A DNA stretch of 64,000 bases from Cycas panzhihuaensis (GCA_023213395.1 CM041465.1:87365741-87429740), one strand, 5' to 3'. Counted from the first letter of the stretch, positions 5,270-38,150 are shown. Notes: a model not told the origin generated them from the sequence alone. Program-made: numbers and translations.

Positions 5270-7484
5270 GATCCCGGTTCCGCCCTCAGTGCAGTGTGAT
5301 CCTCGCCTGGGACCACATCCTGCGAGGCTCCTCCTGAGCCTCATGGCCGCACGCCTCGCTCTCTCCTGGAGGCCGTCTGGGAGTCGTGGCCCGTGTGTGT
5401 GTGTGTCGGCTCGGCCGACCTCGAGACCATCAGGCCACCGGTAAGTCGTAGCGGACTGGATGCGGTCCCTCTCGCCTCGGAGTCCCTCCTCGGCGACTCT
5501 CGCCCTATCCTCCAGATGCCTTAAGGCGCTCCTCTAGGGGCCGAGGCGAGTCTTGATCCCTGTGTCCCCTCTGGCCTCGGCTCGTCCCGTAGCTCATCTC
5601 GCTCGCCCACAGTGGCGTCGAGCTCTCATTGTTGCCCGAGAATGCCATGTGCTCCGGGTCTGCAACCGGATGTCTCGTACTCTCACCATTGGGGCGCTGC
5701 ATATAGGCTCACTGTCGATCTGCGCATCTTACGCACTCGATGGGCGGTTGCCCTCTGCGTGAACTGAGGGAACAACTCTCTCGGCAGCCTCGACTAGCCT
5801 CAGACCTCGCTACACCGCCAATGCAACATGCCATGTGTCGGTGTGTACCCTCACATGCGTATAAGAAAACGAAATCAAAGCTGCATCTAGATGTCAAATG
5901 ACTAAGGAAGCGGTTAGGTCTCACTGCTGTGGTCCGGTCCCTCCGCCGGGCGACATCCTCCTCTCTGGCTCCCCACTTGTTGGTGCCTCATCCTCGTGCA
6001 CGTCCTGCCTCTGCCTCATCTCTAGGACGGCTCTACCCTCGTCCCTCGGAGCTCCTCACGATCCGAGCACAGCCTTTGGTCCCCGCGCCTGCTTTCGTCT
6101 CGCAGACTCTGATGGACCCGCCCCTCCGGCGACTCGGATGGTCTGCTGCGTCCCCGGTGTTGTGGTGGGCCTGCCCCTTCTCTCCCATCATCGCCGTCAT
6201 CATCCCCGTCGTCTCTGTCCTCGATGGGTGCTCCTCCTCCTCCTGGCGGGTCATCGCCGCCCACCTCACCTGTCACGGATCCGCCACGTAGTCCGTCGGG
6301 GTGAGGAGGTCAGTGATGTCGCGTCGGCAAGCCAAGCGGACATGAGGTGGTCCTCCGTCCCTCGAACCTCGTCGCACACTGTGGACCATCGGGGCCCACC
6401 TCGATATGGGAACGGTCCCCTAGCTGGTGCCAGCTGCAAAGACATGTATGAGAGTCCTCCTCTGCCCGACCTCCTGATAGCATCTGGTTGAGCGACGAGG
6501 TTCGCCCAACTAAGTCGCCCAATCCATCCTCTCAGGCCTCACCCCGTCTGCGCCCACCCATCCTCCGGGATCTCTCCGTAGTTGTTTCGGAGATTTGGAA
6601 CGAATGCATAGTAAAATAAGTTTCCTCGCAGGAATCCTGACAAGGGTATGCGGAGGGAGCTCCCCTCACGCCATCTGGTTCCCCGTGAGGCGAGGCGCCT
6701 CAGGTGTGTCTTTGCCTCGGTCTTGGCGGCCCTCAGCCTCACGGGTCTCCCGGTCGCCGGCACCCCCAGGATCCGTCTGACATCCTCTGGAGTAATGGTG
6801 ACATCTCCAATCTGCGGTAAGTGGAATACGTGCCTCCTCCTGTCCCAGTGCGACACTATGTCCACTAGGAGTCTCTGATCCGATGCGGGGGTCTTGGGGC
6901 CTTATACAGGCCGCATCTCTTCAGGACCGCCCTGTCCTCCTCGGTCGACATCTCCATCCAACTCAAGATGGGCATGCTGACATTCTCATGATTATCCATG
7001 CAGAATCGCCCAACCAGTGAAAATCAGCCGAAGTTAGTCTCCTAGCGGTCACCTAGGCTCCTAGCTGCCTCCCAATTGTTTTTTCTGAGTTTGGGAGCCT
7101 TTTGGGGGCTCCCGTTCTTTATTACAACTTTACGCTGCGTCAGCCTAAACTTAATGCAGCTAAGTTTGGGGCGAGCCCATGGCGATTCCGTCTCACACTG
7201 CGATCCGCGTCCAAGATCGGCAGACTGCAATCTTTCTTGCAGCACGGCAACCCCTCCGAAAGAGGGTTTCGCCCAGTCGAATTTTTGTGGTGGACCCCGT
7301 GGGACCCACCGGACCGGGCCGCTAATGCCCAGTCCGCCTCTTCCGGGTCTGTTTTGAACTCAGGAGGCCTCTAATCGCCCATAAGGCGAAAATGCATTAA
7401 AATTAATTTAAAAGCAATAAACTTTGAGCTTTGAAACGACTAGGATATCGTTGGATCCACTCCTTTGGGTCGACGGCCGGCCAT
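5270..7484 (-). pseudogene. Antisense plant-mobile-domain (PMD, aminotransferase-like) gene of copy A, probably 3 exons
   Basis: ORF 6539-6865 reads DIVSHWDRRRHVFHLPQIGDVTITPEDVRRILGVP, matching the PMD motif W..HTFHLP.GE.TITLEDV..LLGLP. Upstream is MDNHENVSMPILSWMEM. A short first exon MAGRRPK starts at 7484. A GTGAGA donor lies near 5924-5919. The 3' end is approximate. Confidence 0.75.
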
Positions 7485-7605
7485 GGGCGTCTCGGGATCG
7501 TGGCGACTGTCCCTCGCCGAATCCGACGGTCGGATCGTCCTCGTGCCTCGAAATCGGGTGGCGCTCGCGTCGTAAGGAAAAGGCTCTAGTTTAAATGCGA
7601 GGCCG

Positions 7606-7646
7606 GTGAAAATGAATCCGGTTTTCATTGATTTTTCCTTATATAG
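7606..7646 (-). promoter_or_regulatory. TATA box (CTATATAAG) and conserved GTGAAAA-N-TTTTCA inverted repeat, promoter of the antisense PMD gene
   Basis: The same block is conserved in copy B at 33421-33460 (GTATATAAAGG). In both copies it lies about 160 nt upstream of the PMD ATG. Confidence 0.65.
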
Positions 7647-8161: not shown

Positions 8162-8575
8162 ATGTCTCTCCTTATTTTCACCGATGGCGGAAGTTGCGGC
8201 AACCCCGGACCCTCCGCCGCTGCATGGATTCTCCGTAGCCCCTCCGGACACGACTACCTGCGTTCCGGAGTCTTTCTTCCCGAGGCCACCAATAACGGCG
8301 AAAGCACACGGCGTTATTGAGGCCCTTCTGCTCTTCGCTTTCATCGCGGTTCCATTGTGTTGTTTTGCGATTCTCAGGTCGTGGTGTCCCATCTCACCCA
8401 GGTTTACCAGGTGCGGTGCCCTCACCTGAGAACTCTCGCGTCTGCCGCCAGGTCCCTTCTGGCCCGTTTCTCATCAGCGGATATTCAGCATATCCCGAGG
8501 CACCTCAATCTTTGGAGGCGGCCTCGTCCGCCTCATCCTTGAGCGTCGCCTTCCTCTCCTTGATGATCGCCTCGA
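8162..8575 (+). pseudogene. Stand-alone archaeal-type RNase H (aRH) ORF of copy A
   Basis: ATG at 8162: MSLLIFTDGGSCGNPGPSAAAWIL...TNN..A..VIEAL...LFCDSQVVVSHLTQVYQVRCPHLRTLASAARSLLARFSSADIQHIPR. These are RNase HI motifs (DG.S.GNPG, TNN.AE, DS, HIPR..N). Confidence 0.85.
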
Positions 8576-8919: not shown

Positions 8920-11410
8920 TGTTTCCCGGTAGTGGAATGGACTCGGGATGCATCGACCAGTTTGTTCGGTATATGTTTTCACTTTTCTTACTTACGATTG
9001 CTAAGGTAATTTGGAGTAATTTGGTGACATATGCACCCTACATGCATTGTTTGATTGCTTCATAATGCATGTGCCTAACGGCACCCTTCAAATTCTATGG
9101 CGACTCACAGTGATGGGCATCCATAAGCGGATGCGACACCCCGTATGGCGCCCAGCCACTCACGATGTCTCCATGGTCTCTCAGGATGCTCCTGCCAACT
9201 CGTTTGTCCTTATTGCCACGTGCCACTCATGTTGCAAACCCTTCCTAAGCATGGTTTAACCCTTAGCTAGGGCTCTTTGCATCGTTGGTGCCTTGCTTGC
9301 ACAGGCCTTCCCGATTGATATATTTCAGGCCTAGCCCCTACCTTTACCCTAAAAACTGATGTTTATGACTTTTATAATGTATTTTTCTTCCTTTTTTTCT
9401 TTTTTCTGAGTTTTGATGCATCATGGTAAACTAAGCGGTACCGCGGAGTTTGCCGCAGATCGCAGTTTGCCGCGGTACGACTGTTTAAAATTTGAAAAAA
9501 AGAAACCACGCGACAGTGGCCGCGTTTTTTCGTGGAACTGCCGCGTGGCTCCGTACGATTGGAGGCGCCCCAAGGCCCCCAACGTTCACTTGCTATGCCC
9601 AAGGCATAAAAGCCTTTTTCCTACTCATTGGCCTCATTCTTCACTTCAATTTTTCAAGCTTTCTAGAGCACTCTTCAAGAAAAAGACAAGGAAAATACAC
9701 ATTAAAAGAGGAACTCCTTTTACAGCAGTGGGACAAAGGTGAAGGGGGCTATTACCAGCTGGAGTTGCAGGCCATCACGCCCCTACGCCTCCATCACAAG
9801 CTTCACCTTCTCTTACGAATACTCAAAGATCTAAAGCATTTCTTCACAAGAAAGACTACTCCAAAGGACAACTTCTAGCTCCCATCTTGCACGGAGCTTC
9901 CTCCTTCCATCTTCTTGCAAAGGACACCAAAACCAAATTTTAGACATTGCTTGTCCGCTCCAAGTAGTCAAGGTGCATGCCTGCATGCTCTCCTTCATTC
10001 GAGGTATTTCTTGTCTCTTGTTGGTGCATTTTCCTTGCTTTTTGTTGTTCTAGTGCAATTTCCTTCCTCTCTTTGCATATACTTGCTTTGGGATCTTCTT
10101 TTTGTCATCGGATGCAAGTAATCTTGGCTAGTGGTGACTTACTATAGCCACCTTAAATTGGTTATATTTCTTTGCATTTCCTTGAAACTTGTCCTTCCCT
10201 TTCTAGCTTTCTCTTCACCATTTTCTAAGCTAGTCAGTATAAAGGGTTTCACGCGAGGATTAGAGGGAGATAGGCGGGTTAGTCCCCCATCGCCATCCTT
10301 CTCCCCAAGGGTTCCGCCCTTGTCCTCTCTCTCCCTTTATCACCCGCTTTTTTAGGAAACTGTTAAGGAAGCCTAAGAGGGTCGGTTTGAGTTCTTTTCC
10401 TTTGGTGTAGGCAACTGTTACTACCTGTCTCACCTCAGAGCCTGCTAGCATTACCTTCCGGACCCCGTGGAGACCACTCGTGGGTGAGTTAGCCATCCCG
10501 AGGCTACACCCAGTCCCATATAGTGCATTTTGTGGTGCTTGACAGTTTGTATGCTTATCAAGCAGATGTTGTTTCATTTTCTACACGTGTTGGCGTAACT
10601 TGGTTTCTTTAGTTTAGTTGATTTCATTTCAGTATATACACATATATCTTGTTGTGCTTCGTGGCCTCTCCCCCGAGAGGAAGGCATTCCCTCTGTTTGT
10701 TTGCAGGATCACGTCAGAGGGAGTGGTGCGCGAGATCAACCTGCTTCTTGGCCGGCTCTCGCACTCAGATCTCTTCTCCCTTTCGCTTCGAGCTTTGCTT
10801 TTCGTCTTCGTTTTATTCGCCTTTGCATGCCTTAGGGGAGGTAAGTAAACCCCCTTCGTCGCCTCTAACCGACGTTGCATGCGTGGAGGAGAGAGGAAAG
10901 GAGCGCAACCCAGAGAGAGGATCCACTTCATCCTCAACCATGGGATCCGTGTATTCTCGCGTTTCCTTTTATTTTTTCCTTTTATCATTCTTGCCTTTTT
11001 ACATGCTTAATAGGTAAAAGAGAGAATATAAAGAAAAGGAATATAAGCTATTTTACGCTTACTTTTCTCGCACTGCTTTTACATTGCATTACGAGACAGA
11101 AGACCCATTTACGCTGTATTTCCCAACCCATGCCTTACTTCACGCCTGCTGCACGTTGAGTTTGTTGCCCTCGTTGCTTCTCATTACCTTACCTTGAGAA
11201 GGCCGCATTGAGTTCCTTTTCCTTCCCGGCCATCCGAAGGGTAGGAAGGCCTCGTCTTGCTCGGCTACCTGGAAGCAACCAGGCACCTTGCGATCCGTAC
11301 CGCTCCCAAGATGGGCGACCCGAGGTGAGATCCTCATTGCCCAGCCCATCGTGTTGTGTTTTGTATTTCTTTGCTAGACGTAGGATCGCATTCCCGCGGA
11401 GAGCGTTTCA
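8920..11410 (+). repeat. 3' LTR of copy A (~2.5 kb)
   Basis: Starts TGTTTC after the family pre-LTR motif GAGCAG(T/C)GAGGCTCTGCT and ends GCGTTTCA. The next bases, GAAGG, resume a chromovirus RT frame. Confidence 0.85.
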
Positions 11411-20104: not shown

Positions 20105-23100
20105 TGTTTCCTAGCTATCAGGAATGGACATTGATAACTCACCTTAGGTAAGCATAGCTACGTATCTATCCTCACTTTCATTGGCTTCAGGATGTTATTG
20201 GATTATGGATAGATACACATTACTGATTGATTGATTGATTGCATGATCATTGTGCTTGGTTTAACTACATATTCATGTTTGCACATAATATTCTAGCCTA
20301 TGACGACTTGGGACAAGCATCCCATGACATCTTATGACCCTCTGCCATGTCTCCATAATGTCTCCAAGTACTTTTGGCTCCCATAGCCTGTCTTTTATCA
20401 CTTCTTAGCATGATGTAACCCCTGGCGGCCCATTTAGGCCTGGTTGTCACTCTTGTTTGCTACTTATTTCTCTTTGGGGCCTTGTTGCCACCCCTTTCTC
20501 GTTTATCATGGTCTCTCTAGGTCCTATAACCCCTCTTGGCACCTCAGCATTGTATTATTGTCCTTTCAGGGTCTAGGGCCCCCTTTTTGGGAAGCCTTCT
20601 AGGCTCCCCTTTTTTGTTTTTAGCTAGTTTTGAGTGCACAACTGCAAATTCTGCGGTACCACTATAAGCTCCATGGTACCGTGATGTTTGTCGTGGTATG
20701 ACTGTTCAAATTTATTTTTTTGTCTGGCCACAGTCAATTTCACATTAAATGCAAAATTGACATTTGGCACTTGGTTATTTATCGCCTAGGGCAAGCCTTA
20801 GTCGCCCGTTAGGCTAAGGTTGGGTTTAAAAACCCAAATTTTACTGCATTTCTCTTCTTCTTCCTCCTCATCTCTAAGAAAACTTTTTGAAACAAAAGCT
20901 CTCACCTGTTGTACCTATCCTCCAATCTAGCCATCATCTTCCTTAGGGTATAATCCTAAGTTATAGGTCTGTAACAATGAGCTTTGAGATAGATCTCCTC
21001 CATAAGTACTTCATTAAGGCACAAGCATCCAATTTGTTTGTAGGTCAAGCTCTCTCATTGCGTCATTGCAGAGGTTCTCCACCACTTTTTAAGGGAAACT
21101 TTCTTTCCAGCCAACATACAAGGTAGACTCACCTTAGATCTACTTTTTTCAGGTATTTACAGATATGCACATCATTCTTTTCCTTAAGCATAAGGGTTTT
21201 CTTGCTTACTTTTAAGTTTTCTGTGTGAAACTACGTCCTATTTATCTATTCTGTAAGGTAAACCCTTCCCTTTCTCATGCTTATTCCCTTACACCTTGAG
21301 GTTTCCCTCGGGTCCACTCAAGGAGGTAGAGAGAAAAGAGTCTAGCAAAGAGAGAAAGGAGTTTCAGGCAGGGTTCTGTACCCTTTTGCCATCTCCTCAA
21401 GGGTAGCCCCCTACTCTTCGCTCATTTTCCTCTCTTAATATCTCTCTTGTCCACTCAAAAATCCTTGGGGTAGGGAGCCTTGTTAGTTGTAGCATTAGCA
21501 GCACCTTGCTATGCCTACAACTAGCCTTCGTAGCTTCACAAAATCTGGTTTTTAGTAGTAGCTCCTTCGATTTACATAGTCTTACCTCTCCTTTTGTAAA
21601 ATCTTGCAAAAGTTACATAATGCAACTTATGCAACTTTTACATTTCCCTGTAACTTTTCCGTATACAAAGTTTGTTGCTCTTTTACCATTAGAAAAACTT
21701 GGCTTATGTCCTTATTTGCTTGCTTGAGTACTTGGGAATATGGAGACACCCCATTAGGAGGGTTAGTTATTCTGAGGCTACCCTTCTCTCTTCCTTCTAC
21801 CCCCTTTCTCACAATCATTAGAACATTTTGTTTGCATAATAAGTAAAACTAACATTGTACATGGTGTTTATTTGGAGGATGTTTGTATAAGGTTACTCTC
21901 ATTTTTTTCCTTTTCCTTTTGATAAGTATATGTACATAGGTTTACTCCCATGCATGCCTAGTGCCCCTTGGGAAAGGGCAAACTATTTGTCGTGCATGTT
22001 TCTCCTTTTTGGAGCAACCTAAGGCCTTTACGAAAGGTGCACATACCTCTCTTGTTGTTATTACATTATTTTAAAACTTCATTGTAAGCAATTCTTTCTT
22101 TTTCCTTTTGTTCTTTTTGCATTTGGACCTTGGGGAAGGTAAGGAAGCCTCGCTAGTGTTCCTCTCGCCATATTGATCGCGACAAGGAGCGTTGGTTAGA
22201 TGAGCATGGATCGCAAAGAAAGTGAAAAGGCCTCTACACCGACCATCCAGTTTCCAAGTGCACTATTTCTATCCTATCCTCTCGCTCATTCCTTCCCCTC
22301 CCTTTTTACTCCCAAAAGAAAAAAGAAGAAGAATAAAAGAGAAGATAATTTTGTATTTCATTATTTGTTGCTCAACTTGTTTGATCATATAGGGGGGAGG
22401 GTAATTACTTTGTACAAGTAGGTGTCAATCTCCATTAGTTGCATCTTTACCTCCCTCTCTTGGCTCAAACTCTCGTATTCGCCTGAGGTTGAGTGCAAAG
22501 GGTTGTGAGTCCCTCTATTCCCAACCTATTCTTTTTTACACGTACCATTAGGTTGACTTGCATTAATCCCTTGCATCCTCTTCTTGTGCTTCCTGCTTAC
22601 TTATTTCCTTTTATGCTTATAAAAAGATAAAAAGAGAGAGGCTCGGATCTAGGAAGAGAGAGTGAATTGTTATCTTTTTCTTGTTTACTTCTTTTTTAAT
22701 CTAAATATAAACTATAAATAACAACAGCTTATAGAACTATCCTATCTCATTGTATAACGAAAACAAAGAAACAAGATACATTGTGTAACTCCACCTACAT
22801 CTAGTCATTTGTTTCAGGTGTAGGCATCTTAGGGGCGTTCCCCCCTAAGGTCTTTCTCCCACCTTTCGGTGAGGCCTCACTTTGCCTTACCTCCATTTAG
22901 AAGTTGACATCTTTCAGCCCAACTTCCCCTTCTCATCTACACTACTAGTCACGTGTCACTTGCTCGTAGGTACTTCCTCTTTCAGTTAGGACCTACCTCT
23001 CTCGTTCCCTCTCGTTGGGAAGGGTGCATCCATCTCAACCCTCCTTCCTTAGCTATCCAAGATAGGAGGTCCCTTGAGTCTATTTAGCAAACTGAGGGAG

Positions 23101-23309
23101 CCCCCCTTTGTCCGCTTCGAATTAAGGAGGTGATCACCTTGAGGGGGAGTTTGTGCACTATTTGCGGGTCCTTGAACCTGCATTTTGATGCACGGATGCC
23201 CTTTGTGGGTAATCATTTCCCTTGCTTCTATATATCCTTTAGCCCTATGACTATCGATTGTATCAGCTTGATCTCTTCGTATCTGGTGATCCCTAGAGGT
23301 ACGCTTCAA
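20105..23309 (+). repeat. 5' LTR of B
   Basis: Direct repeat of 34948-38150. In one sample (21481-21600 vs 36323-36442) I counted 7 differences in 120 nt, all transitions. Confidence 0.92.
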
Positions 23310-23310
23310 C

Positions 23311-23328
23311 TAATGACCTTGCTGGGGA
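23311..23328 (+). other. Degenerate primer-binding site of B (tRNA-Arg type)
   Basis: TAATGACCTTGCTGGGGA. With D (43094-43077) and F (~62217) it gives a consensus TGGCGACCTTGCTGGGGA, like Ogre/Tat tRNA-Arg PBSs. Confidence 0.65.
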
Positions 23329-24449
23329 CTTGTCAATAAGGGGTCTATTCTAGTCCCTTTTTATCAGTAAGGGGTCCATCCTGGTGACAACACCCATGAG
23401 GATTGCCCTGTAGGGTCTGCTTCATATGGGGATCCTTCGACCTTATATGAGCAAGTGGATACCCCTCCAACGGATGTGGTGGGAGTGCTTAATTAGTGCT
23501 TCTAAGGGGCTTGCCTCTAACCACCTCCTAAATGGTTGAATAGCATCTTATGAAGCATGGCACTCTTCTCCTCCACATCTGCATTTTCACATTCATTCCA
23601 CTCGACTTTCCTATCTACAACGGGGACATCCCTCATTATGTCTTCCTCCTCTTGTGGCCCGTATTCCTTAGGGGCCACCTGAGGTATACCCACTCCCCAA
23701 CTTGGGTTAAGTATACCTCCTTCTAGCTAAGCAACTATGCCTCAACCGATCGTATTCCATCCACCTCCCGTTAGATCTAGGTGACTTACGTATCCCCCTA
23801 CTTCTAGGTACGTGGGACAAATTCATGTGCATTCCCAAACTCAACCTAGGGATTCTTCCCTCTATGTACCCCCGGCATATACTTCCTAACCATGGGGGCA
23901 TGGTAAAGGGAATCCTCTCCTCATCTATGGGGTGGACCCCTTATATCCATATGGTGTTACACCACCTATCGGTGGCCCATATGCGCAAAATCTGATTCCA
24001 CACCCATCTATAACTTCTTCTTATGTTTCTCCTTATGTGGTGCCTTCGCAAGGAGGGAAAGCCCATTCTCAAGGCACCTTTTCTCAAGTCCCCTTTCAAT
24101 AAGGGACACACCCTCAAGGAGGGATGGACTTGGAAGGTATGGCACCAAAATTGGAATCTGAAATTGGAATACCAATTATGGCGTACTCCTCCTGTTCGAA
24201 CCGGGGTTTGGATCTTGCTTACGAAAATGCGGAGGTTTTTCCCTACAAAAAGGAAGAGAAAGATCGGATTTCCCTCCTACCCATCCGCTTCTTTTTTTAT
24301 CCCCTCATATTTGGGATTAGTTCCCTCCCAGCAAGCGAGAGGAAGTTTATATCCCCTTTCAGGCCAACTTTTCCAAGGAGGATTTGGGCATCCTTGCCCA
24401 CCTCATCCTTCGTCCTTCGTTGACCCTATAGTCCAACCAAGGGCCCATC

Positions 24450-25030
24450 CCTTCATGGACTATAGGTCAACTCCTTTATCCATTGAGGTGTTAAGAACTA
24501 TTTACCGCCTCACCCTCTTGAGGTACCTAAGTTTGACGGGACCTCCTCTAAAGACCCAACGGAGCATGTTAGAAGTTTTTTTATGGTGTGCATCGATCAT
24601 GAGGCATACGATCATATTCTGATGAAACTTTTTTCATGTTTACTGCAAGGCGATGCCCTCAAATAGTTTTATCACCTTTCTACATACTCCATCCACTCAT
24701 TCCAGCAACTCATCGACAAGTTCGTCAATTATTTTGACATCGCTCATCCCTTCGAGAGTAGAATGAAGACTCTTTTGTCCCTCAAACAAGGTCATGATAA
24801 AATGAATTATGACTTTGTGAGGTGTTTCCACAATCTTCTCCACTCCACGAAGGCAACATTACCTGAGGAGTTAAAGAGGGATTTTTTTGTAAATGCCCTT
24901 CATCCTGAAGTGCATATTGAAGTCCTCAAGATGGGGGCAACAATATGTGATTCCACCATAGTCAAATGTTTGGCTCTAAAGGCTATCGAGATCCAAGTAG
25001 GTCTCAAGAAGCCTCTTAGGTCATTGCAAT
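24450..25030 (+). pseudogene. gag: gag (retrotransposon capsid domain) of B
   Basis: EVPKFDGTSSKDPTEHV...ILMKLFSCLLQGDALK*FY...IHSFQQLIDKFVNYF...LKQGHDKMNYDFVRCF. Confidence 0.8.
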
Positions 25031-26049
25031 GATACGAGGTACCTCCTTTATCTCGCGATACCAAAACCCAACAACCTCCTAGGTCTTCGACTCATTCGAT
25101 GGAGAAGACCTTGGACACTTTAACTTCTGCTATACGTTCTTTTGAACGTACGATGAAGGAGCTCAAACTCCAAGCTCCTTCATCACTTACTTCTCACAAA
25201 CCCATTCATCAAGCCTCTCAAGTTGCGCCTCCCAAGAATGGAAATACCCAAGACGAAGTCTTCCTTGGAGAAGAAATAGGGTTCCATTCATAGTGAGTGC
25301 TTTCATGAGGACTTGTAATATAGGGTGAAAAATCCCAAATCTGCCCCACATTGTGACTCCTCTCCTAAATGGGCATCTAGGCCCAATCTAGGTCAACCCA
25401 TTCATAAGGATCCTTTTCCCAAACACGGGGAATGAGATCACCATACCTAGCAAAAGGGCAATCAAAATAGAGGGAAGTCCCCTAACCCTTACCCCACACA
25501 AGCCAAGGGAAAGGGGATAAGGAACTCTTCCTCCTCCTCTGATTCCCACCGCTAAATTCCTTCTCCCTCTCGATCTCGAAACAAAGGAAAGAGAGTTATC
25601 CAGATGCTTAATACCACACCATCATATGCCTTGAACTGGTTTTAAGTGGCCAAAGAAGCCATAAGTGTTTTTATTATTCTCATCTTCATCCTCCTTTAGA
25701 GAATCCTCCTTCAGAGATCCCATTGCTTCCCAAGATGATCCCTATTTGCCCTGGTCGCTATGATTTCCAAAGGGCGCTTCCCCAACCTATCGTGAAGGGG
25801 AAGCCCTTCTCTATCATCGACGAGCTTCACACCATGGCTGCGAGAATGTCCATGATGGATGTCTTGTGAAGTTGTCTAAAGCAATGTGCTCTCCTCCTAA
25901 AGATTTTGGGGTTAGTTGACGCTTCCATTCGCACCTTGTGTATTGCCTTAAGCTGCAAACCTGTCATCTCGTTCGACCTTAAAAATCTCCCTCCAACCGG
26001 TGAAAGTAAATGCCAGTGGTACTACCCTTTTACTATATCCATAGACAGA

Positions 26050-29000
26050 CCTGAATGTACCCTTCAAAGAACTATCATAGATAATGGTTCTTCCATCAAT
26101 ACTATACCCTTGCAAATCGTGCAAGAGTTAGACATAGTAGCTCTCTAGCCCATCTCGTGGTGTTGTTAAGGCTACAATAGTAGTGAGAAGACACCCTTGG
26201 GATTGATCTTCATTCCTCTTACCCTCAAGGATAAAACCATCCTCACTGACATCATAGTCATCAATGTAGACATGGATTACAACCTTTTGTTGTGATGTCC
26301 ATGGCTTGATTAGATAGAGGTCGTATGCTCATCATGTTGGGGGCAACTCAAATTCATTCATGAAGGGCGAATGAAGGTTGTTTCCCATGAGCCTCCTCCC
26401 ACTAAACAATTGCATCAACCCCATCAAGCGATTCGTGACTAAGCGAAGGGCAACAAGGGCCCATCTGCCCACGCTCCTGCTTGCTCTTTTGACATTCCTA
26501 GTTCGTCACATTCAGAAGAAGACCCTTCCCCTTCTTCCTTAGCTTATTCGTTTTGCCCCTATTGGTGTGGGGAGTTATGGGTACCTCATCATATTGAGTG
26601 ACGATGAGTTCGATGGTGAGGATGAGGACCTCCCTCATCCCATATCCCTCCTAAACATGAGTAGGGGGTGCTCCCTTCATTTCAGGTCTCAACCTAAAGC
26701 CTCTTCCATTAAGGATCCTAGTCCTCCTCCAGAGTCACATATCATTACTTCCATCTCTCATGTGACTTCCCATCTTGCTTCATCTTCTACCTCCTCACCC
26801 TCCTTGAGCAATGGGGCGAGGGAACCTCCTATCGTCTATCACATGAGATCACCCTTCGACTCTTCCAAAGAGTCTCTTGACTATGTTAAGCAGTGGGTCG
26901 ACCACTATGGTCCAGTCGCTCCTTCTATTCCTCATTCCTCATCTTCTCCAAGTGTAATTATCCATGGGATAGATTGCTTTGAGAATGACGAGGCCTTATT
27001 AGAGCATCTAGCAGGCTATGTGCCCAATATCCCTCTTGGTCACTATAAACTTGGTTACCAAAGGATTTTAGCCCTTGGGTCACACTTAGCTGACCCAAGT
27101 CTATCTTCTTCTTCTTCACCCTTTCCTATTGACCAAACCCTCCTTCACTTCAAGGAAGGGAATGCCATGTGTAAGAGAGCGACCAAGGACATCATCCTTG
27201 CTCCCAACAAGGTCATTAAGGTGGGAGCGAAGTGTTCCCCTAAAGAAATGAAGGAGTAAACCCTTCTTTTTCAGGAATTCCATGACATCTTTTCATGGGA
27301 TTATGCCAACATGAAGGGGATAGACCCTTCTATTGTTATCCATAACCTTATTACCATTCCAGGCACTTGCCCCATGCAGCAAAAGCAGTGCCCCCTTCAT
27401 CCTAAACTTTCAGCTGTCGTAAAGATGAACATTAAGAAACTCTTGGATGCAGGGTTAATCACCTCCATCGACTACCCCAAGTGGGTCTCAAACATCATTC
27501 TTATTGCTAAAAAGAACGAGACGATTCAGATATACATTGATTTTCGTAACATTAACAATGTGTGTCCCAAAGATAACTTTCCTCTACCTTTTATCAATCA
27601 AATCATCGATCGAACTGTTGGATTCAAAGTCATATCCTTGATGGATGGCTTCTCTGGGTACAACTAGATCCAGATCTCTCCCGAAGACAGTCGTAAAATA
27701 GCCTTCACCACTCTTTGGGGTACCTTCGCTTACAAAGCGATGCCCTTTGGACTCAAATATACAAGCGACACTTACTAGAGGATGATGCAATTCATCTTCC
27801 ATGACCTCATAAACTAAACCCTTGAGGTCTTCATGGATGACATGATGGGTCTTTGCGTATAAGGGCCTACCATCCTAGCGACTTGCGAGCCATCTTTATG
27901 AGGTGTCACAAATATCACGTGAGCTTAAACTCTCTTAAATGTGTGTTTGTTATAACAACTAACAAACTCTTTAGCTTTCTTGTTTCAAAACAAGGAATCT
28001 AAATTGATCCCAATAAAGTCAAGGCTATCCCTGACATGCCTCCTTTTAAGACTCAATGATAAATCAAGTTGTTTTTAGATAGATTAGGCTTCTTCAGGTA
28101 TTTCTTGGCAAACTTCGCTATAAACACTAAATCCCTTATAAACTTATTGAAGAAGGGGGCTTCTTTTGTATAGTCTCAAAAGGCCCAAGAACCTTTCAAA
28201 GAGCTCAAAAGAGCCTTAGCTTCTGCCTCAATCTTAGCACATCCCTTCTTTGATCAACCTTTCATCCTTTATACCTCAGCTACCGACGAATCCTTAGGGG
28301 TTATGCTTGCCTAAGAGGATGACTCAGGAACTGAGAGGGCCATCTGTTTTATCAATTATACCTTAGTTACTGTTGAGCTCAACTACTCCCCCGTCGAGAA
28401 GGAATGCCTCGCCTTGGTGTACGCCACCAAGAAGTTTAGGCATTACTTACTTGGTAACACCACTCAAGTGACCGTTCAATCTAATCCCTTGAGGTACCTT
28501 CTAACTCGATCTGACTTGACAGGTAGGACCGGCAAGTGGGCCATTCTCCTTCAAGAATTCGATCTCCAAATCATCAATAAGAAATCATAGAAAGGGATGG
28601 TGGTTGTTGAAGAACTAGCTGACACCCCCATCCCTAACTCTTCGAACACTCTTGTCGATGATTCCTTGCTGAGTGAGCCTATCTTTTCCATTCAAGACTC
28701 GTCCCCCCATCCATTGACGGATAGTGAATAGTATGGGGATATCATACGATACCTCACTAAATAATAGTATCGTTCTGATGTTAGTGATAAGGCAAGGTCA
28801 CGCATTAGGGCTAATGCTAGGTAATACTTTCTCATGGAAGGGGCATTGTACAAAAGATCCTTTGATGGGGTCCTCCTTCACTCTGTCAACCTTGATGAAG
28901 TGAACTAGATACTTCGTGAGTGTCACAATGGCATTTGTGGGGGCCACTTTGGGGGTCAATCTATGCCCCAGAGGGTCCTTCGGATAGGTTACTATTGGTC

Positions 29001-29973
29001 GTCCCTCTTTAAGGACGCCCATGCATATGCATTGCAATGTTGTAGGTGTCAGGAACACACTAATGTCATCTGTTTGCCTTCCAAGACCCTACACCTTATT
29101 ATCTCTCCATGGCCTTTCTTTGAATGGGGGTTAGACCTCATCAGGGCCATAACCCCTCCTTCTTTGTAGCAGTATAAGTTTATCTTAGCTGTGATGGAGT
29201 ATTTCACTAAATAGGCTGAAGTGATTCCCTTGTCTTCCACTTCTGGTAAGACAATAGCTACCTTCATCTACTAATACATTATCTGTCGATTCAGGGTTCT
29301 TGATATCTTGATCACAGATAATGAAACTCCCTTTTGTAATAAGGAAATAGATGAGCTTTGTAGGAAGTTTTGGAAATCCCACAAGACTTCTTCTCCTTAT
29401 TACCCTTAGGCCAATGGCCAAATCGAATCCTTCAATAAGACTCTCATAAATATCTTAAAGAAAACTATTGCTTAATCCCAAAAGAATTATCACCTTCAAC
29501 TTCCCTCTACCTTATGGGCATACTGCACTTCCATCCGCACGGCCACAGGGATGACCCCGTTCTCCCTTATGTATGGAATCGAAGTAATCCTCCCTTTGGA
29601 AGTTGAAATTCCCTCCCTGTGTGTTTCCCTTTGAGGTCTTATCGATGAGGAATCCTGTTGCCAGGCCTGCCTCCTTGACCTTGAAGCCTTAGACGAGAGA
29701 TGTTTGACTATGTATCAAGCGAATCTCGCCTCCAAAGCTAAGATGCAAAGAATATATGACAAGTGCCTTCACCCTTGCCCTTTGCATCTAGGGGATCATG
29801 TCCTCAAATTAGAGTATCTCCACGATTGCTTGTCCAAATTCAGGCCTAAATGGGTTGGTCCCTTCATCATTCTCGAAAGCCTCGACAATGGCACTTATAG
29901 GATTGCAACCCTGGAAGGTCTCGAGTTTGAGAAAGCCATCAACGGTAAATTTCTAAAGAAATTTTATGCATGA
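26050..29973 (+). pseudogene. pol: pol of B (PR, Ser/acidic linker, RT, RH, INT); no aRH between RH and INT
   Basis: IIDNGSSIN; LMDGFSGYN; VFMDD; WPFFEWGLDLI; KWVGPF...AINGKFLKKFYA*. Many transition-type stops. Confidence 0.92.
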
Positions 29974-30789: not shown

Positions 30790-33291
30790 TGCCCTCAGGG
30801 GGTATCGTCTCCTCATCTGTGAGATCCCTCACTAGGAGACCACATACATCCTAGGCTCCTCTTGTGTTGCTGTGAGCTCCCCACCTCACTCCCATCGTCC
30901 TGAGGCCTCCTGTGGGTCACCGTCGTCATATGCATATTAGACTTGCTCCTTGACAACCTGGTCGCGACTTGCTCCACTAGTTGATCGTATCTTGCTTGGA
31001 TACGATCCCTCTCCTCCTCTCCGCTCTAGAGTCCCTCCTCCAGCATGGTGATCTAGATCTAGCTCCCTATATCCCTGCCTGCTACTCCTCCTCTCTAGGC
31101 CTCTAGTACCTAGACCTAGCCTTGTAGGGTATTCCTCTCTGCGACTGCCTGGTCCCTCTCTGTGCGGAGTCCATCTAGCTCTTTTTGCAGTTGTCCTACC
31201 CTCGCCTGGTGTCCTTAGGACTCTATCGCCCACATATCTCTGGCCATGATCAATGGGACAAATGATGTCGTGTGCGCCCCCGTCAATCGAGGCTCCTCTT
31301 CAGCCTAGATAGGAGGTTGTCCCCCTGCATAGATTTGGGCGAATAACTCCTGGACTACTGCTTCCATTAACCTCCTCATCTCCACTACTCCTGCCAAACC
31401 ATACATACGATGTGTTAGTTTAATGCACATATGTATATATCAAAGCATTGAAATTAAATCAAAGTAAGTTATTTAAGTAGCTAGTGGTTGAAAGATGTCG
31501 AGTAAGGATAGTGTCTCATCTCCTGGAATGACTGGCTCCTCCGCTCTAACGACCACCTCCTCCATAGGAGCTCCCTCAACTGCTGAACCGCCCTCCTTTG
31601 CCTCTAGCACCACCTCTCCTACATCTCGGATTGCTGGGACATCTTTTACCTCATCTCCTCTATCTATCGCGGCTATCGTCGCCTCTGCTATTACTACCAT
31701 GGCCACCACTTCTGCAGGAGCCCTACCTGTCGGTGTGCATGGTGGCCTATCTCCTCTCGTAGCCCCTGACGGACCTACCTCTCTTCTTGTAGCTCCTGAT
31801 GGGCCTACCTCTCCTCTTATAATCCCTAATGGGCCTGCCTCTCCTCCTGCGGCTCCTGATGGGCCTACCCCATTGCCCCAATCATTACCTCCACGCTCGT
31901 CGGGGTCATCTCCCAGCTCTCTCGTCATATTGTCACTCTCCTAATGCACCCCTCTATATGGGTCTACCATATAGTCTGCCAGGGTGAGAAGGTCGAGTGA
32001 CGTCACCTCCACTAATCTCCAAACGTAGACCTGATCCTCGGTTCCCTTGAACTGAGTCTACCACTTGTGTACAATGGGCGCTCGTGTCGAGATGGGATGC
32101 AGTCCCCCTGACGGTGTGACTACTCCGAAATGGTCAAAGAACCGTTACTATAGTAGGGTGTAATATGAGAAACCACCTCTCCTTGCCACTCAGATTGTGT
32201 CTAGTTATACCACCATGTTTACCGCTATTAAGGCACCCTAATCCAACCTCTCTCTAGCCTTACACCTTTTAACTATGGTTATCAACCTGCCTGGAATGTC
32301 TTTGTAGTTCTATTTCTGGGAGATTTTGAACATAATGCCCAGTGTGATAAGCTTCCTCACCCGAGCAATCCGTGACATCACCATAGCCTACACCAACACC
32401 CCTCATCGATCCCTCCTACCTTAGCCTATGAAATATGTTATCGCCTCCGTGTGTACAGTGTCTGTGCTAGGTAATGTGCCCAATGATGTTGGCACTCCTC
32501 CTATCGGCAACCTTAGAATCCTCCTGATGTCTCCTAGTATGACAGTGACGTCTCCTACCTAAAGGAGATGGAAGACGTGTCATCGTTGATCCTAGTAGGA
32601 GACTATATCCACTAGGAGGTGTTGATTTGAGGCATATTGGGGCATCCCGATGACCTTCAGGAGCCTGCAATTTCTTAATATCCCTTTGTCCCTTTGTGAC
32701 ATCATCTCTATAAAACTTAACATAGCCATTCTGATATTCTCGCGGTTATCCACCACGATAACCACCTATAAAAACACCTAAATACCAGTCTAAATCCTCC
32801 TCATACTATGCCTAGCTCCCCTTAGGATGCCTCTTGCTCCACTTGGATGAGCTAGCCATCCTTTCAGGCCTCTTTTCTTCTTTTTTCCACCATTTCCTCT
32901 CTTCCTTGCATCAAACTTTGCAGTACCACAAAGTTTGATATGGGCCCCACTAAGATTTTTGTGTCCTCTCAGTGGCCCTGAGGCAAACTCTGTGGCACCA
33001 TGATCTTTACCGCGGGGCCATTGTTTCCCCCTTGAAAAAAGGAGTGAGGGTGCCTAAAAATCCCCAAAAAATTTCTCTAAGTGTGCCAAGGCTTGGCCCA
33101 CTAGGACCAGGGCTACCTAATGCCCTGGTCCTCCCCTTCTCTAGGCCTCATTCGAGCTTTAGAGGGTCCCAAATCACCCTTAAGGGGCCCAAATTAAGAT
33201 ATAAAAACCTTAAAAAGTCACTAAATGCAAACGATGAAATGAAGAGGGTAAGGGGCGATCCACTCACCAGATCTGGCCTCGCCACCATCAT
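30790..33291 (-). pseudogene. Antisense 3-exon PMD / low-complexity / coiled-coil gene of B
   Basis: Exon 1 33291-33268 encodes MMVARPDL, followed by GTGAGT. Intron 1 is 33267-32766 (TTTTATAG acceptor, phase 0). Exon 2 reads VVIVVDNREN...DIVSY*DQR*HVFHL..VGDVTVILGDIRRIL. Intron 2 is 31519-31391 (donor decayed to ATGAGA, ACTAAC branch, TTTGGCAG acceptor, phase 1). Exon 3 has heptad-like QLQKELDGLRTERDQAVAERNTL. Confidence 0.78.
31745..31870. repeat. 30-bp tandem repeat (~4 units) encoding EVGPSGATRG-like decapeptides in the antisense gene
   Basis: CCTGATGGGCCTACCTCTCCTC-like units. ORF 31473-31928 reads VGPSGAAGGEAGPLGIIRGEVGPSGATRREVGPSGATRG. Confidence 0.8.
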
Positions 33292-34028
33292 CTCGTCGTC
33301 TCAATCACATTAGTTGTCTCCTTTACCTCAATCCAATGGTTGAATCTCTCGCTGTGTGCTCCTGAAGTCGGGTAGGGCTCCGCTATGTAGAAGAAACGGC
33401 TCTAGATCGATCACAAGCCCGTGAAAATGAATCTCGTTTTCACCCTCCTTCCTTTATATACGCCGGGGCCCCGAGGGGTACTTCCTCCTTTTTCTTCACC
33501 GTGACAACCCTTAAGACCATTTTCTTAGCCTCATTATCTTTATCTTCAGGGCGCATCCCCTATTTCACCTCTATGGCCTCCTTTTTTAGCTTTTTGGCAT
33601 ATTTTTTATGACCCCTTCAATCTCCCACAGATCCCTTTTATCTCGTTTTTTGTGTTGCTCCAAAACATACCCATATTTATACTCCTATGACTCGTTTTGC
33701 AATTCTAGATCTGTTCTTGTTACCTATTCAAGCCTTTAGGGCTACCAAAAGAAGCGAGTCCCCTTTTCTGGGCCTCATCTTAGTCCTTTTAGCAACCTTT
33801 GGGGCCCTAAAAGGGCCTTTTTGCCACTGTTTCCCTACCTCTTCGCTAGGTCAATTCCCTTCTCCCTGAGTAGCCTCTTTTTAGGACTCTCCTGTCTTTC
33901 ATAATGCATATTCATAGCCTTCTGAGTGATTTTTAGCCCCATCGCTACCTCTCCTCCCTTCTCTCCACCTATTGACCCTGCCATCATTATTCCTTTTGCT
34001 GTTTGATGGGGATCCTCACTTCTTCATC

Positions 34029-34472
34029 ATGGTATTGCTCATCTTTACTGATAGAAGAAGTCGTGGTAATCCAGGACCTTCTACTGCCACATGGATCCCC
34101 TGTGACTCCTCTAGATATGATTACATGTGTTCTAAAATCTTCCTCCCTAAGGTCGCTAATAATAAAGTTAAGTACATAGCCGTCATTGAGGCCCTTACCA
34201 ATGCATTATGTTTTTACCATGGTTCCATCATCCCTCTTTCTGACTCTTAGATCATCTTATCATAGCTTACCCAAGTTTACCTGGTACATTGCCCGTATTT
34301 GAGAGCCCTCACTTTGACCACTAGATTTCTCCTATCTTGTTTCTCCTCTGTGGATATTCAACACATTCCTCGAGACCTAAATGCTAAGGCAAACAATCTT
34401 GTTTGTCATATCCTCGAGTGTCATCTCTCTCTTCTCGATGATCCTCCTGGAGGAGCCTATCAAGATGCCTAA
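34029..34472 (+). pseudogene. Stand-alone archaeal-type RNase H ORF of B (147 codons, one frame, 2 internal stops)
   Basis: MVLLIFTDRRSRGNPGPS...ANNKVKYIAVIEAL...LSDS*II..LTQVY...DIQHIPRDLNAKANNL. Confidence 0.88.
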
Positions 34473-34947
34473 TCACCCAGGTTCTGGGATTGTCTCTTCT
34501 TCTATTTTGCGATCTGTTCGTACCTCTAAAAGCTGGACACTAATGAGGTTAAACTATGGTGACCACCAGGTTTGTTTCTTCACCTTGTCCTTCATACCAC
34601 CCATGGTGCAAAGCCTATGTATGTCGATCCCCTCTTGTACATACTTTCCGTTATGTAATCACACTTTTTGTTATGCTCATGACTATCAACATCTTTTACC
34701 TCGCATAGATGTGATGGGGGCATCTCCCTCATCCACTCTCCTCTCTTCATTAGATTCTAGAGCGATGCATAGGCATCCCCTATGCACCCCTCTTTCCTCC
34801 CTGTCCATGCGTTCTGCCACAACACTTGCCACCACCCTTGGATGATGACACCACTATACTTTAATGCTCGATACTAACCTTTGTGTTGACAGCATTCACC
34901 ATCTCATCATGCTTTTGAGCAGCGAGGCTCTGCTACTAAGGGGGCAA

Positions 34948-37900
34948 TGTTTCTGAGCTACGGGGAATTGACATGGATGACTCACCTCAAATAAGCGTAG
35001 GTATGTATCTATCCTCACCTTCATTGGCATTAAGATGCTATTAGATTATCGATAGATATACGTTGCAGATTGATTAATTAATTGCATGATCATTGTGCTT
35101 GGCTTACCTGCATATTCATGTTTACACATAATATTCCAACCTCTGACAACTTGGGACAGGCATCCCATCACATCTTACGACCCTCTACCATGTCTCCACA
35201 ATATCTTTAAGTGCTTTTGGCTCTTGTAGCTCGTCCTTTATCACTTCTTGGTATGACGTAATCCCTGGCGGCTCGTTTAGGCCTGATTGTCATCCTTGTT
35301 TACCACTTGTCTCTCTTTGGGGCCTTGTTGCCACCTCTTTCTCATTCATCATGGTCCCTTTAGGTCCTATAACCCCTCTTAGCACCTCGACATTGTATTA
35401 TTATCCTTTCGGGATCTAGGGCCCCCTTTTTGGGGAGCCTTATGGGCTCCCCTTTTTGGTTTTAAGCTAATTTGAGCGTATCATTGCAAATTTTGCGGTA
35501 CTGCTACAAATTCTATAGTACCATGAAGTTTTTCACGATGCAATTGTTTAAATTTATTTTTTTGTCTAGCCATGGCCAATTTTGCATAAAATGTGAAATT
35601 GACACGTGGCGCTTAGTTATTTCCCACCCAGGGCGAGCCCTAATCACTCGTTAGGCTAGGGTTGGGTTTAAAAACACAAAATTTGCCTCATTCCTTTTCT
35701 TCTTCCTCCACATCTCTAAGAAACATTTCTGAAATGAAAGCTCTCACCTATTGTACCTATCCTTCAGTCCAGCCATCATCTTCCTTAGGGTACAACCCTT
35801 AGTTGTATGTCTATAGCAGTGAGCTTTAGGACATATCTCCTCCACAAGCACTCCATCAAGGCATAAGTATATAGTTTGTTTGTAGGTCAAGTTCTCTCCT
35901 TGCGTCATTGCAGGGGTTCTCCACCACTCCTTCAAGGGAAACTTCCTCCCCAACCAACACATAAGGTAGACTCAACTGAGATCTATTTTTACTAAGTATT
36001 TACAAGCTTGTACATCATTCTTTTCCTTAAGCATAAGGGTTTCCTTGCTTACTTTTCAGTTTGTTGCGTGAAACTACCTCCTATTTGTCTATTCCAAAAG
36101 GCAAACCCTTCCCTTTCTCTGGCTTATTCCCTTACACATTGAGGTTTCCCTAAGGTCCACTCAAGTAGGTAGAGAGAAAAGAGTCTAGTGAAGAGAGAAA
36201 GGAGTTTCAGGTAGGGTTCTATACCCTTTTGCCATCTCTTCAAGGGCAGCCTCCTACTCTTTGCTCCTTTTCCTCTCCCAATACCTCTTTTGTCCACCCG
36301 GAAATCCTTGGGGCAGGGAGCCTTGTTGGTTGCAACATTAGTAGCACCTTGTTACGCCTACAACTAGCCTTCGTAGCTTCACAAAATCTGGTTTTTAGTA
36401 GTAGCTCCTTCGATTTACATAGTCTTACCTCTCTTTTTGTAAAATATTACAAAAGTTGCACATTACAACTTTTTTAACTTTTACATTTCATTGTAACTTT
36501 TCTGTATACAAAGTTTGTTGCTCTTTTACCATTGGAAAAACTTGGCTTCTATCATGATTTGCTTACTTGAGTACTTGGGAACGTGGAGACAAACCATTAG
36601 GAGGGTTAGTTATTCTAAGGCTACCCTTCTCTCTTCCTTTTACCCCCTCTCCCACAATCATTGAAACACTTTATTTACATAATAAGTAAAACTAACATTG
36701 TACATGGTATTTATTTGGAGGATGTTTGCATAAGGTTACTCTCATTTTTTTCCTTTTCCTTTCGATAAGCATATGTACATATGTTTGCTCCCATGCATGC
36801 CTAGTGCCCCTTGGAAAAAGATAAACCATTTGTTGTGTAGGTTTCGCCTCTTTTGGAGCAATTGAAGGCCTTCATGAAAGGTGTGCATACCTCTCTTGTT
36901 GTTATTACATTATTTTGAAACTTCATTATAAGTAATTCTTTCTTTTTCCTTTGGTTCCTTTTGTGTTTGGATGTTGGGGAAGGTAAGGAATCCCCACTAA
37001 TGTTCCTCTTGCCATATCGATTACGACAAGGAGCGTTGGGTGGACATGTGTGGATCGCAAAGAAAGTGAAAAGGCCTCTACACTGACTATCTAGTTTCTA
37101 GGTGCACTACTTCTATCCTATCCTCTCACTCATTCCTTCCCCCCCTTTTTTACTCCCAAAGGAAGGAAAGGAAGAACAAAAGAGAAGATAATTTTGTATT
37201 TCATTATTTGTTGCTCAACTTGTTTGATCATATAGGGGGGAGGGTAATTACTTTACATAAGCAGGTGTCAATCCCTACTAGTTACATCTTTACCCTCCCT
37301 CTCTTGGCTCAAACTCTCATATTCGCCTGAGTTTGAGTGTAAAGGGTTATGAGTCCCTCTATTCCCAACCTATCCTTTTTCCCACATACCATTGGGTTGA
37401 CTTGCATTAGTCCCTTGCATCCTCTTCCTGCGCTTCCTAACTGCTTATTTCTTTTTATGCTTATAAAAAGATAAAAAGAGAGAGGCTAGGATCTAGGAAG
37501 AGAGAGAGAGTTGTTGTATTTTTCTTGTTTAATTCTATTTTAATCCAAATATAAATCAGAAATAACAACTCATAGCACTATCCTATCTCATTGTATAACG
37601 AAAACAAAGAAACGTGATACATTGCATAACTCCTCTTACATCTAGTCATCTGTTTTAGGTGTAGACATCTTAGGGGCGTTGCCCCCTAAGGTTTTCCTCC
37701 CCTTTTCAATGAGGCCTCACTTTGTCTTACTTCCATTTAGAAGTTGACCTCTTTCAGCCCAAATTCCCCTTGTCATCCATACTACCAATCACGCATCACT
37801 TGCTCGTAGGTACTTCCTCTTTCAGTTAGGACCTACCTCTCCCGTTCCCTCTCCTTAGGAAGGGTGTATCCATCTCAACCCTCCTTCCTTGGCTATCTAG

Positions 37901-38150
37901 AATAGGAGGGTCCCTTGAGGCTACTCGGCAAACCAAGAGTGCCCCCCTTTATCTGCTTCGAATCGACGAGGTGCTTACCTTAAGGGGGAGTTTGTATGCT
38001 ATTTGTGGATCATCGAACCTACGTTTCGACACATCGATGCCCTTTGTGGATAATTATTTCCCTTGCTTCTATAGATCCTTTAGCCATATGACTATTGATT
38101 ATATTGGCATGATCTCTTCGTATCTAGTGAACCCTAGAGGTATGCTTCCA
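34948..38150 (+). repeat. 3' LTR of B, preceded by PPT AAGGGGGCAA (34938-34947)
   Basis: TGTTTC...CTTCCA, a direct repeat of 20105-23309. Confidence 0.92.

What the first reader, a model, noticed from the sequence alone, without database searches (positions are those of the whole stretch)
30790..34472. Tat retrotransposon 3' cassette: spliced antisense PMD gene with its own promoter, head-to-head with a stand-alone archaeal RNase H
Seen: in both B and A (5270-8575), about 4-5 kb between pol and the 3' LTR holds two extra genes. One is a minus-strand gene with a conserved TATA box, a tiny first exon and two phase-consistent introns, encoding a PMD, a low-complexity linker and a coiled coil. 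The other is a plus-strand aRH ORF with its own ATG. Known: PMD ORFs occur in some gypsy elements and in the host regulators MAIN/MAIL1. Antisense introns survive because the genomic RNA is the opposite strand. Inference: this is a multi-gene, independently transcribed accessory module, reminiscent of complex retroviruses, conserved across subfamilies of very different age. I cannot confirm whether this exact architecture is published.
Basis: partly seen in the sequence, partly recalled or inferred. Interest (0 to 1): 0.82.

Follow-up and report, generated by a model that had tools for sequence, protein, structure and literature searches.

The report
TatIII retrotransposon's split antisense PMD gene
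Two decayed copies of a known plant retrotransposon type (TatIII) carry its published extra genes, an antisense plant-mobile-domain gene and a separate RNase H; what seems new is that the antisense gene likely has its own promoter and two introns, which no RNA has yet confirmed.

Summary
The cassette is real, and its gene content is published. Copy B (20105-38150) is a complete Ty3/gypsy element. Its pol lacks the additional RNase H, which sits in its own ORF about 4 kb past the pol stop. An antisense PMD gene lies between them. This is TatIII: Ustyantsev 2015 lineage III and Biryukov 2023 structure #3. Copies A and B differ mostly at third codon positions in PMD, exon 3 and aRH, but not in the proposed introns. 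TATA-to-initiator spacing is identical in both. Both copies are broken, and B's PMD passes no Pfam threshold. The one available run (RNA status guessed, strand unknown) listed no joint at either junction, and its deepest intron-1 contig keeps both intron ends. No promoter for aRH was found. I found no report of introns in this gene or of a coiled-coil exon in lineage III (10 searches; two key papers unavailable). Verdict: known lineage; likely, unproven new gene anatomy.

The parts
20105..23309 (+). 5' LTR of element B (end approximate), followed by a decayed PBS-like stretch
   Evidence: blastn to 3' LTR 86% over 3.2 kb; K2P 0.148
23310..29973 (+). Leader and gag-pol of B (gag, RT, native RH, INT), broken; no additional RNase H inside; native RH appears to lack the first catalytic Asp (motif recalled)
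   Evidence: Pfam; RH end 28561 to INT start 28894 leaves 333 nt
30795..31390 (-). Predicted exon 3 of the antisense gene: charged, predicted coiled coil; broken by stops; true stop uncertain (30815 or 30797)
   Evidence: third-position excess vs A, p=0.006; heptad scan
31391..31519 (-). Predicted intron 2 (129 nt, phase 1, 68% AU); acceptor canonical, donor non-canonical in B; branch-point-like CTAAC
   Evidence: no RNA support
31520..32765 (-). Predicted exon 2: PMD (about 32750-31900), then a low-complexity linker with 30-bp tandem copies (31750-31869)
32766..33267 (-). Predicted intron 1 (502 nt, phase 0), GT..AG in B; its donor is the only GTRAGT on the minus strand of 30790-33430
   Evidence: no RNA support
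33268..33428 (-). Predicted exon 1: 5' UTR from the predicted start (33428) and 8 codons (33291-33268)
33428..33490 (-). Predicted internal antisense promoter: GC-rich motif, TATA at 33460, initiator-like TCA 32 nt downstream
34029..34472 (+). Stand-alone additional (archaeal-type) RNase H ORF, broken
   Evidence: Pfam RVT_3 E 6e-9; third-position excess p=8e-9
34948..38150 (+). 3' LTR of B, preceded by a purine tract; flanked by a decayed 5-bp target duplication (20100-20104, 38151-38155)
5270..7645 (-). Same antisense gene in copy A: TATA 7645, first ATG 7484, predicted intron 1 7463-7015, exon 2 7014-5925, intron 2 5924-about 5817, exon 3 to about 5270; many 1-nt gaps
8162..8575 (+). aRH ORF of copy A (frameshifted); preceded by a U-rich tract, CTAAC and an AG 2 nt before the ATG
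8920..11410 (+). 3' LTR of copy A

Best explanation
This is the 3' accessory region of a TatIII Ty3/gypsy retrotransposon, holding an antisense PMD gene that is likely transcribed from its own TATA promoter and likely spliced at two introns, and a separate sense RNase H ORF that would replace the apparently degenerate RNase H of pol. How it works, step by step. (1) Shown: two diverged copies keep both ORFs in the same order and orientation with third-position-biased divergence, so both were under protein-level constraint while these subfamilies were mobile. Both copies here are now broken. (2) Inferred: RNA polymerase II starts about 32 nt below the TATA box, reads against the element, and the mRNA loses two introns to give a roughly 620-aa PMD-linker-coiled-coil protein. 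(3) Follows from the replication cycle: the packaged genomic RNA is the other strand, so these introns are never removed and are copied into every new insertion. (4) Inferred by analogy, untested: the protein is a nuclear, trans-acting anti-silencing factor for its own family, like Arabidopsis MAIN/MAIL1, which hold off Polycomb at promoter motifs, and VANC. (5) Inferred: aRH is made from a separate mRNA and acts in trans during reverse transcription. A spliced or leader-intron mRNA is slightly more likely than a divergent TATA-less promoter (about 0.4 vs 0.35).
For: Lineage: domain order gag-RT-RH-INT, then aRH equals structure #3; the 5-bp TSD fits REXdb TatIII. Coding constraint, mismatch at codon positions 1/2/3: PMD 0.34/0.25/0.52 (p=3e-7), exon 3 0.38/0.30/0.50 (p=0.006), aRH 0.37/0.13/0.58 (p=8e-9). 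INT control: 0.21/0.12/0.52 in its true frame. Proposed introns: 0.43/0.48/0.40 and 0.33/0.45/0.30. Introns: each of the 4 sites is canonical in at least one copy; intron 2 is AU-rich against its exons (B 68% vs 46-50%, A 55% vs 36-39%) and differs between copies by non-triplet gaps; CTAAC lies before A acceptor 1 and B acceptor 2. In A the only ATG between the predicted start and donor 1 is in phase 0. Distant relatives P0016/P0019 join an ALKBH8 N-terminus to a PMD-linker-helix ORF, in two sources, which suggests a working acceptor upstream of a related PMD (inferred from proteins only). Function by analogy: bioRxiv 10.1101/2024.09.27.615353, PMC5418596.
Against: Only 4 of 8 splice dinucleotides are canonical. 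In run X1 none of the listed joints matches either junction (15 of 28 joints shown; 5 listed). Its deepest contig there (depth 461) keeps about 50 nt of one end and 30 nt of the other end of intron 1; strand and RNA status are unknown. Intron 1 is barely more AU-rich than exon 2 in B (53% vs 50%). Intron 2 is a multiple of three long in both copies (129 and about 108 nt). B has a start-stop ATG upstream of the exon-1 ATG. The linker shows only p=0.053. Intron controls were tested in one frame each, with few columns for intron 2 (61). Only two copies were compared. Neither window PMD passes the Pfam cut-off. The anti-silencing role rests on PMD-C proteins, not retrotransposon PMDs.
Confidence: 0.62

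Rival explanations
1. The antisense gene is unspliced in its coding part. Translation starts at an ATG just inside 'exon 2', 'exon 1' is non-coding leader, and 'intron 2' is a decayed in-frame piece of the linker.
For: A has an in-frame ATG five codons into exon 2, and relatives P0003 and P0006 are called from that point (gene-caller starts only). Intron 2 is a multiple of three long in both copies. B's donor 2 is non-canonical. X1 lists no junction. P0016, P0019 and P0022 run from PMD to the terminal helix in one ORF, but these contigs may be spliced mRNA.
Against: Intron 2 has stops in the through-reading frame of both copies, non-triplet gaps between copies, no third-position excess and raised AU content. 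A canonical donor (A) and acceptor (B) sit exactly where the AU-rich stretch begins and ends.
Confidence: 0.2
2. aRH is not a stand-alone gene. The sense RNA splices out the whole antisense gene as one large intron and joins aRH to the end of Pol, as in the 2015 picture of a C-terminal aRH.
For: PMC4408406 places lineage III aRH at the C-terminus of the putative Pol. A has an acceptor-like sequence just before the aRH ATG. PMC10508981 asks how aRH could work from a separate ORF.
Against: Pol ends at a stop at the same place in A and B. The one donor-like site near the end of B's pol is not kept in A (by eye). Both copies keep an ATG at the same place before aRH. B lacks the AG.
Confidence: 0.08
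3. The antisense unit acts mainly as RNA, forming double-stranded RNA with the genomic RNA to limit copy number; the protein is secondary.
For: Proposed for antisense ORFs in general (PMC7264820). The non-coding stretch between pol and the gene's 3' end is well kept (67% identity).
Against: Strong third-position bias in PMD and exon 3. The predicted transcript points towards pol but its ORF ends about 800 nt short of it.
Confidence: 0.07

Closest known systems
TatIII / Tat lineage III (Ustyantsev 2015, PMC4408406; Neumann 2019, PMC6317226) = structure #3, clusters H and I (Biryukov & Ustyantsev 2023, PMC10508981)
   Same: aRH after INT in a separate ORF, antisense PMD ORF in the 3' region, 5-bp TSD, apparently degenerate native RH.
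   Different: In the text I read, these papers describe no introns, promoter or coiled coil for the lineage III ORF (2015 says PMD alone), and do not say that the PMD gene lies between pol and aRH; I could not see their figures. B is 18.0 kb against a REXdb range of 12.7-17.3 kb.
Ogre / Tat lineage V antisense PMD-coiled-coil eORF
   Same: Antisense, 3' position, PMD followed by coiled coil; 431 of 434 REXdb PMD hits are 3' antisense in Ogre.
   Different: Ogre carries aRH inside pol between RH and INT; its known intron is in the sense gag-pol RNA.
Maize Grande gene23 and Retand antisense ORFs
   Same: Antisense accessory gene with its own internal promoter and a nuclear product (as reviewed in PMC7264820).
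   Different: Transposase_28 domain rather than PMD in Retand; no introns mentioned in the reviews; no separate aRH. The primary paper was not available.
Arabidopsis MAIN/MAIL1/MAIL2 (PMD-C) and VANC anti-silencers
   Same: PMD domain; a model for a motif-bound anti-silencing role.
   Different: Host genes of another PMD clade. The window's PMD groups apart from PMD-C-like sequences in a small tree that carries long-branch warnings.

Membership tests
TatIII / structure #3 | Ty3/gypsy order RT-RH-INT between LTRs | tested here: met
TatIII / structure #3 | aRH downstream of INT and absent from PR-RT and RH-INT positions | tested here: met
   RVT_3 hit only in the 3' ORF; RH-INT gap 333 nt
TatIII / structure #3 | aRH in a separate ORF | tested here: met
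   4 kb past the pol stop, own ATG in both copies
TatIII / structure #3 | aRH of archaeal type (conserved Arg; archaeal-like clade) | tested here: inconclusive
   Both copies keep an Arg in the HIPR motif, and RVT_3 scores above RNase_H; no RNase H tree was built, and equating this Arg with the published residue is recalled
TatIII / structure #3 | Degenerate native RH | tested here: inconclusive
   Ser at the place of the first catalytic Asp in both A and B, read by eye against a recalled motif
TatIII / structure #3 | Antisense 3' ORF with PMD | tested here: met
   A PF10536 E 1e-6, below cut-off; B by alignment to PMD proteins
TatIII / structure #3 | 5-bp target site duplication | tested here: met
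   flanks match at 3 of 5, each one transition from a common 5-mer that restores the frame of the host element
TatIII / structure #3 | tRNA-Arg primer binding site | tested here: inconclusive
   a decayed PBS-like stretch follows the 5' LTR; compared only with a recalled motif
TatIII / structure #3 | RT/INT phylogeny within TatIII | not testable with these tools
TatIII / structure #3 | Gymnosperm host | not tested
   host not given; inferred from the lineage's published range
Ogre or Retand | aRH between RH and INT | tested here: not met
TatI / TatII | aRH between protease and RT | tested here: not met
   no RVT_3 or RNase_H hit there in 9 frames of three elements; decay could hide a weak hit
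PMD family PF10536 | Score above the gathering threshold (34.9 bits) | tested here: not met
   A 28.5 bits, B 12-14 bits; intact distant relatives reach 86-87 bits; both window copies are broken

The most novel reading that the evidence does not exclude
TatIII elements express spliced mRNAs from both strands, like complex retroviruses: a two-intron antisense PMD anti-silencer from an internal promoter, and aRH from an env-like spliced sense RNA. Intron 1 is also ancestral. It lies in the same phase and 66 versus 67 codons before the PMD core motif as an intron in a non-retrotransposon-like PMD gene (L002). That would mean a Gypsy ancestor captured a host PMD gene with its introns in antisense orientation, which bears on the open capture-or-domestication question of Ikeda et al. 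2017.
Probability: 0.18. Interest if true: 0.72.

Novelty: new variant of a known kind. Interest (0 to 1): 0.42.

Why it matters
Plant LTR retrotransposons are said to lack introns, with Ogre and EVADE as notable exceptions (PMC12786077), and a 2020 review asks for searches for antisense and spliced transcripts (PMC7264820). A spliced antisense accessory gene would explain why ORF scans found a 3' antisense ORF in only 18% of REXdb TatIII elements and missed a coiled coil in this lineage. It gives exact junctions and a promoter to test. Intron positions could show whether PMD moved from host to Gypsy or the other way. How aRH works from a separate ORF is an open question in PMC10508981. The gene content itself is not new.

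Tried and rejected
No whole genome is held, so no family-wide splice-site or dN/dS test was possible. The sequencing-run search listed no RNA holder; one same-species run, X1, was added by label. The first homolog search with B's frame among longer proteins gave 0 hits in 2,072 candidates. The metagenome scan gave 2 loci from 101 pattern matches, both multi-intron PMD genes outside this family. dN/dS from tblastn segments was saturated and crossed frameshifts (pS 0.73-0.78, pN 0.25-0.46), and wrong-strand controls also showed pS above pN, so I used codon-position counts instead. No solved PMD structure was found. The AlphaFold model of relative P0016 was poor (mean pLDDT 52), so no fold search was run. 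The bacterial promoter scan does not apply to a plant. No third copy of the cassette lies in the window. Exon 3 has no profile-level identification beyond a weak Pfam coiled-coil hit (E 0.04). Earlier scan notes: nothing. Steinbauerova 2011 and Gomez-Orte 2013 are not held. Rejected: the X1 joint 7066-7433 as a splice junction, since its ends are not GT-AG on either strand and it keeps both intron ends.

Full report
Setting. The window holds nested Ty3/gypsy elements. Copy B runs 20105-38150 (18,046 bp). Its LTRs are 86-87% alike (K2P 0.148; 325 transitions, 93 transversions). It sits in the RT of an opposite-strand relative, C, with a decayed 5-bp duplication. Copy A (1-11410) lacks its 5' end in the window. 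A has unreduced CpG (o/e 0.91-0.97 against 0.43-0.47 in B) and many 1-nt gaps: 21 against 2 in RT-RH, 7 against 2 in INT. X1 contigs also show extra bases against A. I read these gaps as likely long-read errors in a young repeat (inference). B is broken mostly by stops; in its PMD, 10 of 12 stop columns are Trp, Gln or Arg in relatives, as methylation decay would give.

Gene content. Pfam finds gag, RT, RH and INT in B's pol and no second RNase H there. An RNase H ORF lies 4 kb past the pol stop in both copies (RVT_3 E 6e-9 and 9e-9; PDB RNase H1 E 3e-12), starting at a matching ATG. On the minus strand A hits PMD at E 1e-6, below the cut-off. B alone gives E 0.02-0.11. B is 51-61% identical to five unnamed relatives and aligns over about 290 residues (E 6e-12) to P0019, which passes the PMD cut-off. 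The full-library profile search returned 16 proteins at E 0.001 or better.

Constraint. Aligning A and B as DNA and counting mismatches by B's codon position gave third-position excess in PMD (p=3e-7), exon 3 (p=0.006) and aRH (p=8e-9). The linker was borderline (p=0.053). There was none in intron 1, intron 2, the spacer or the 3' non-coding stretch; the INT control behaved as coding. The non-coding stretches were tested in one frame each.

Promoter and introns. Both copies have a minus-strand TATA with an initiator-like TCA 32 nt downstream. This is the top blastn match between the cassettes, and 5 of the 25 best ungapped 40-mers fall there (28-31 matches; shuffles reach 23-25). B's donor 1 is the only GTRAGT in 2.6 kb of that strand. 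The exon phases join into 622 codons with 23 internal stops. Only 4 of 8 splice dinucleotides are canonical: B's donor 2 and A's donor 1 and both acceptors are not. Each site is canonical in one copy. Intron 2 is AU-rich and differs by non-triplet gaps, but is a multiple of three long in both copies. Intron 1 is hardly AU-rich in B.

RNA. One run was listed, X1 (contigs; RNA status guessed; strand unknown). It was laid on A twice and never on B. None of the 15 joints shown (of 28) or the 5 matches a predicted junction. A depth-461 contig keeps both ends of intron 1. That fits sense RNA, pre-mRNA or DNA, so it neither shows nor excludes splicing, but it is the only direct look and it is not supportive. 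Indirect support comes from P0016 (JGI) and P0019 (Logan). They carry an ALKBH8 N-terminus up to the point where ALKBH8 relatives and P0020/P0021 continue differently, then a PMD-linker-helix ORF. This reads as a host exon spliced into a related PMD gene (inference; DNA not seen; the join lies 26 codons before the conserved start, against 4 in B).

aRH expression. No plus-strand TATA lies in the spacer. A has a U-rich tract, CTAAC and an AG 2 nt before the aRH ATG; B keeps the tract and a similar branch-like motif but not the AG. A spliced or leader-intron mRNA is therefore at least as likely as a divergent promoter. Both are untested.

Mechanism. Most likely the antisense gene makes a nuclear PMD-coiled-coil protein that keeps its own family transcribed. 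This rests on analogy with MAIN/MAIL1, which counteract Polycomb at promoter motifs and resemble VANC in predicted structure (bioRxiv 10.1101/2024.09.27.615353, passages). Its introns persist because the packaged RNA is the other strand. aRH would supply in trans the activity lost from native RH.

What is known. PMC4408406 (parts 1-4 of 6, supplement legends and table rows; figures not seen): gymnosperm lineage III has an antisense 3' PMD ORF and aRH after INT; a coiled coil is reported only for lineages IV-VI. PMC10508981 (whole text, supplement parts 1 and 3 of 3): structure #3, INT then aRH in a separate ORF, in Pinaceae, Cycas and Ginkgo. Its main text says 'upstream of pol', but its table gives INT.aRH. 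PMC6317226 (passages and supplement rows): TatIII, 39 elements, 5-bp TSD, 3' antisense ORF in 18%. PMC7264820 (parts 1-2 of 3): Grande gene23 has its own promoter; the retroviral accessory-gene analogy. PMC11963269, PMC5418596, PMC9289625 and PMC12786077: passages only. Ten searches listed no paper on introns in a Tat antisense PMD gene, judged from titles, abstract starts and the papers opened. Steinbauerova 2011, Gomez-Orte 2013, all figures and the bioRxiv supplement were not seen and could already hold this.

A lead on origin. L002, a multi-intron PMD gene outside this family, has an AT-rich GT..AG phase-0 intron ending 67 codons before the PMD core 'FH'; B's intron 1 ends 66 codons before it (counted by hand). 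The region aligns poorly and MAFFT opens an 8-residue gap there, so this is only a lead. The tree sets the window's family apart from those genes but warns of long branches.

Verdict. The gene content is published as TatIII. The exon-intron structure, internal promoter, coiled-coil exon and gene order are likely (about 0.6), unproven, and not found in print. Interest 0.42.

Noticed in passing
window 5100-9750 (copy A), run X1: Summed contig depth is 80-1,050 over the 3' cassette and start of the LTR but 4-40 over gag-pol. This might be an abundant derivative lacking gag-pol, or a subgenomic RNA. Contig depth cannot rank parts, and strand and RNA status are unknown.
   Followed up: partly
proteins P0016, P0019 (with P0020, P0021, P0023, P0024): ALKBH8-like N-terminus joined to a PMD-linker-helix ORF in two independent sources; likely a host-exon/transposon chimeric transcript or a young chimeric gene.
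   Followed up: partly
window 8120-8164: Acceptor-like sequence (U tract, CTAAC, AG) 2 nt before A's aRH ATG; the AG is absent at the matching place in B.
   Followed up: partly
window 33681 and about 7864, minus strand: A second TATAAA is kept in both copies about 220 nt upstream of the main antisense TATA.
   Followed up: no
window 19174-20104 and 38151-46282: Element C, an opposite-strand relative (79-81% to B in pol), is split in its RT by B; its 3' cassette is not in the window.
   Followed up: partly
window 29975-30790 vs 4590-5270: The non-coding stretch between the pol stop and the PMD gene's end is 67% identical between A and B, higher than the coding exons, with no codon pattern; possibly RNA signals.
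   Followed up: no
window 11411-12900: A is inserted into another Ty3/gypsy element (RT-RH-like sequence right after its LTR; integrase-like hit at 12223-12888).
   Followed up: no
L002:176-303: AT-rich phase-0 GT..AG intron at nearly the same distance from the PMD core as B's intron 1.
   Followed up: partly
window 54978-56088 and 59531-59948: Direct repeats of about 240 bp (860 apart) and about 200 bp (220 apart), 87-91% alike.
   Followed up: no
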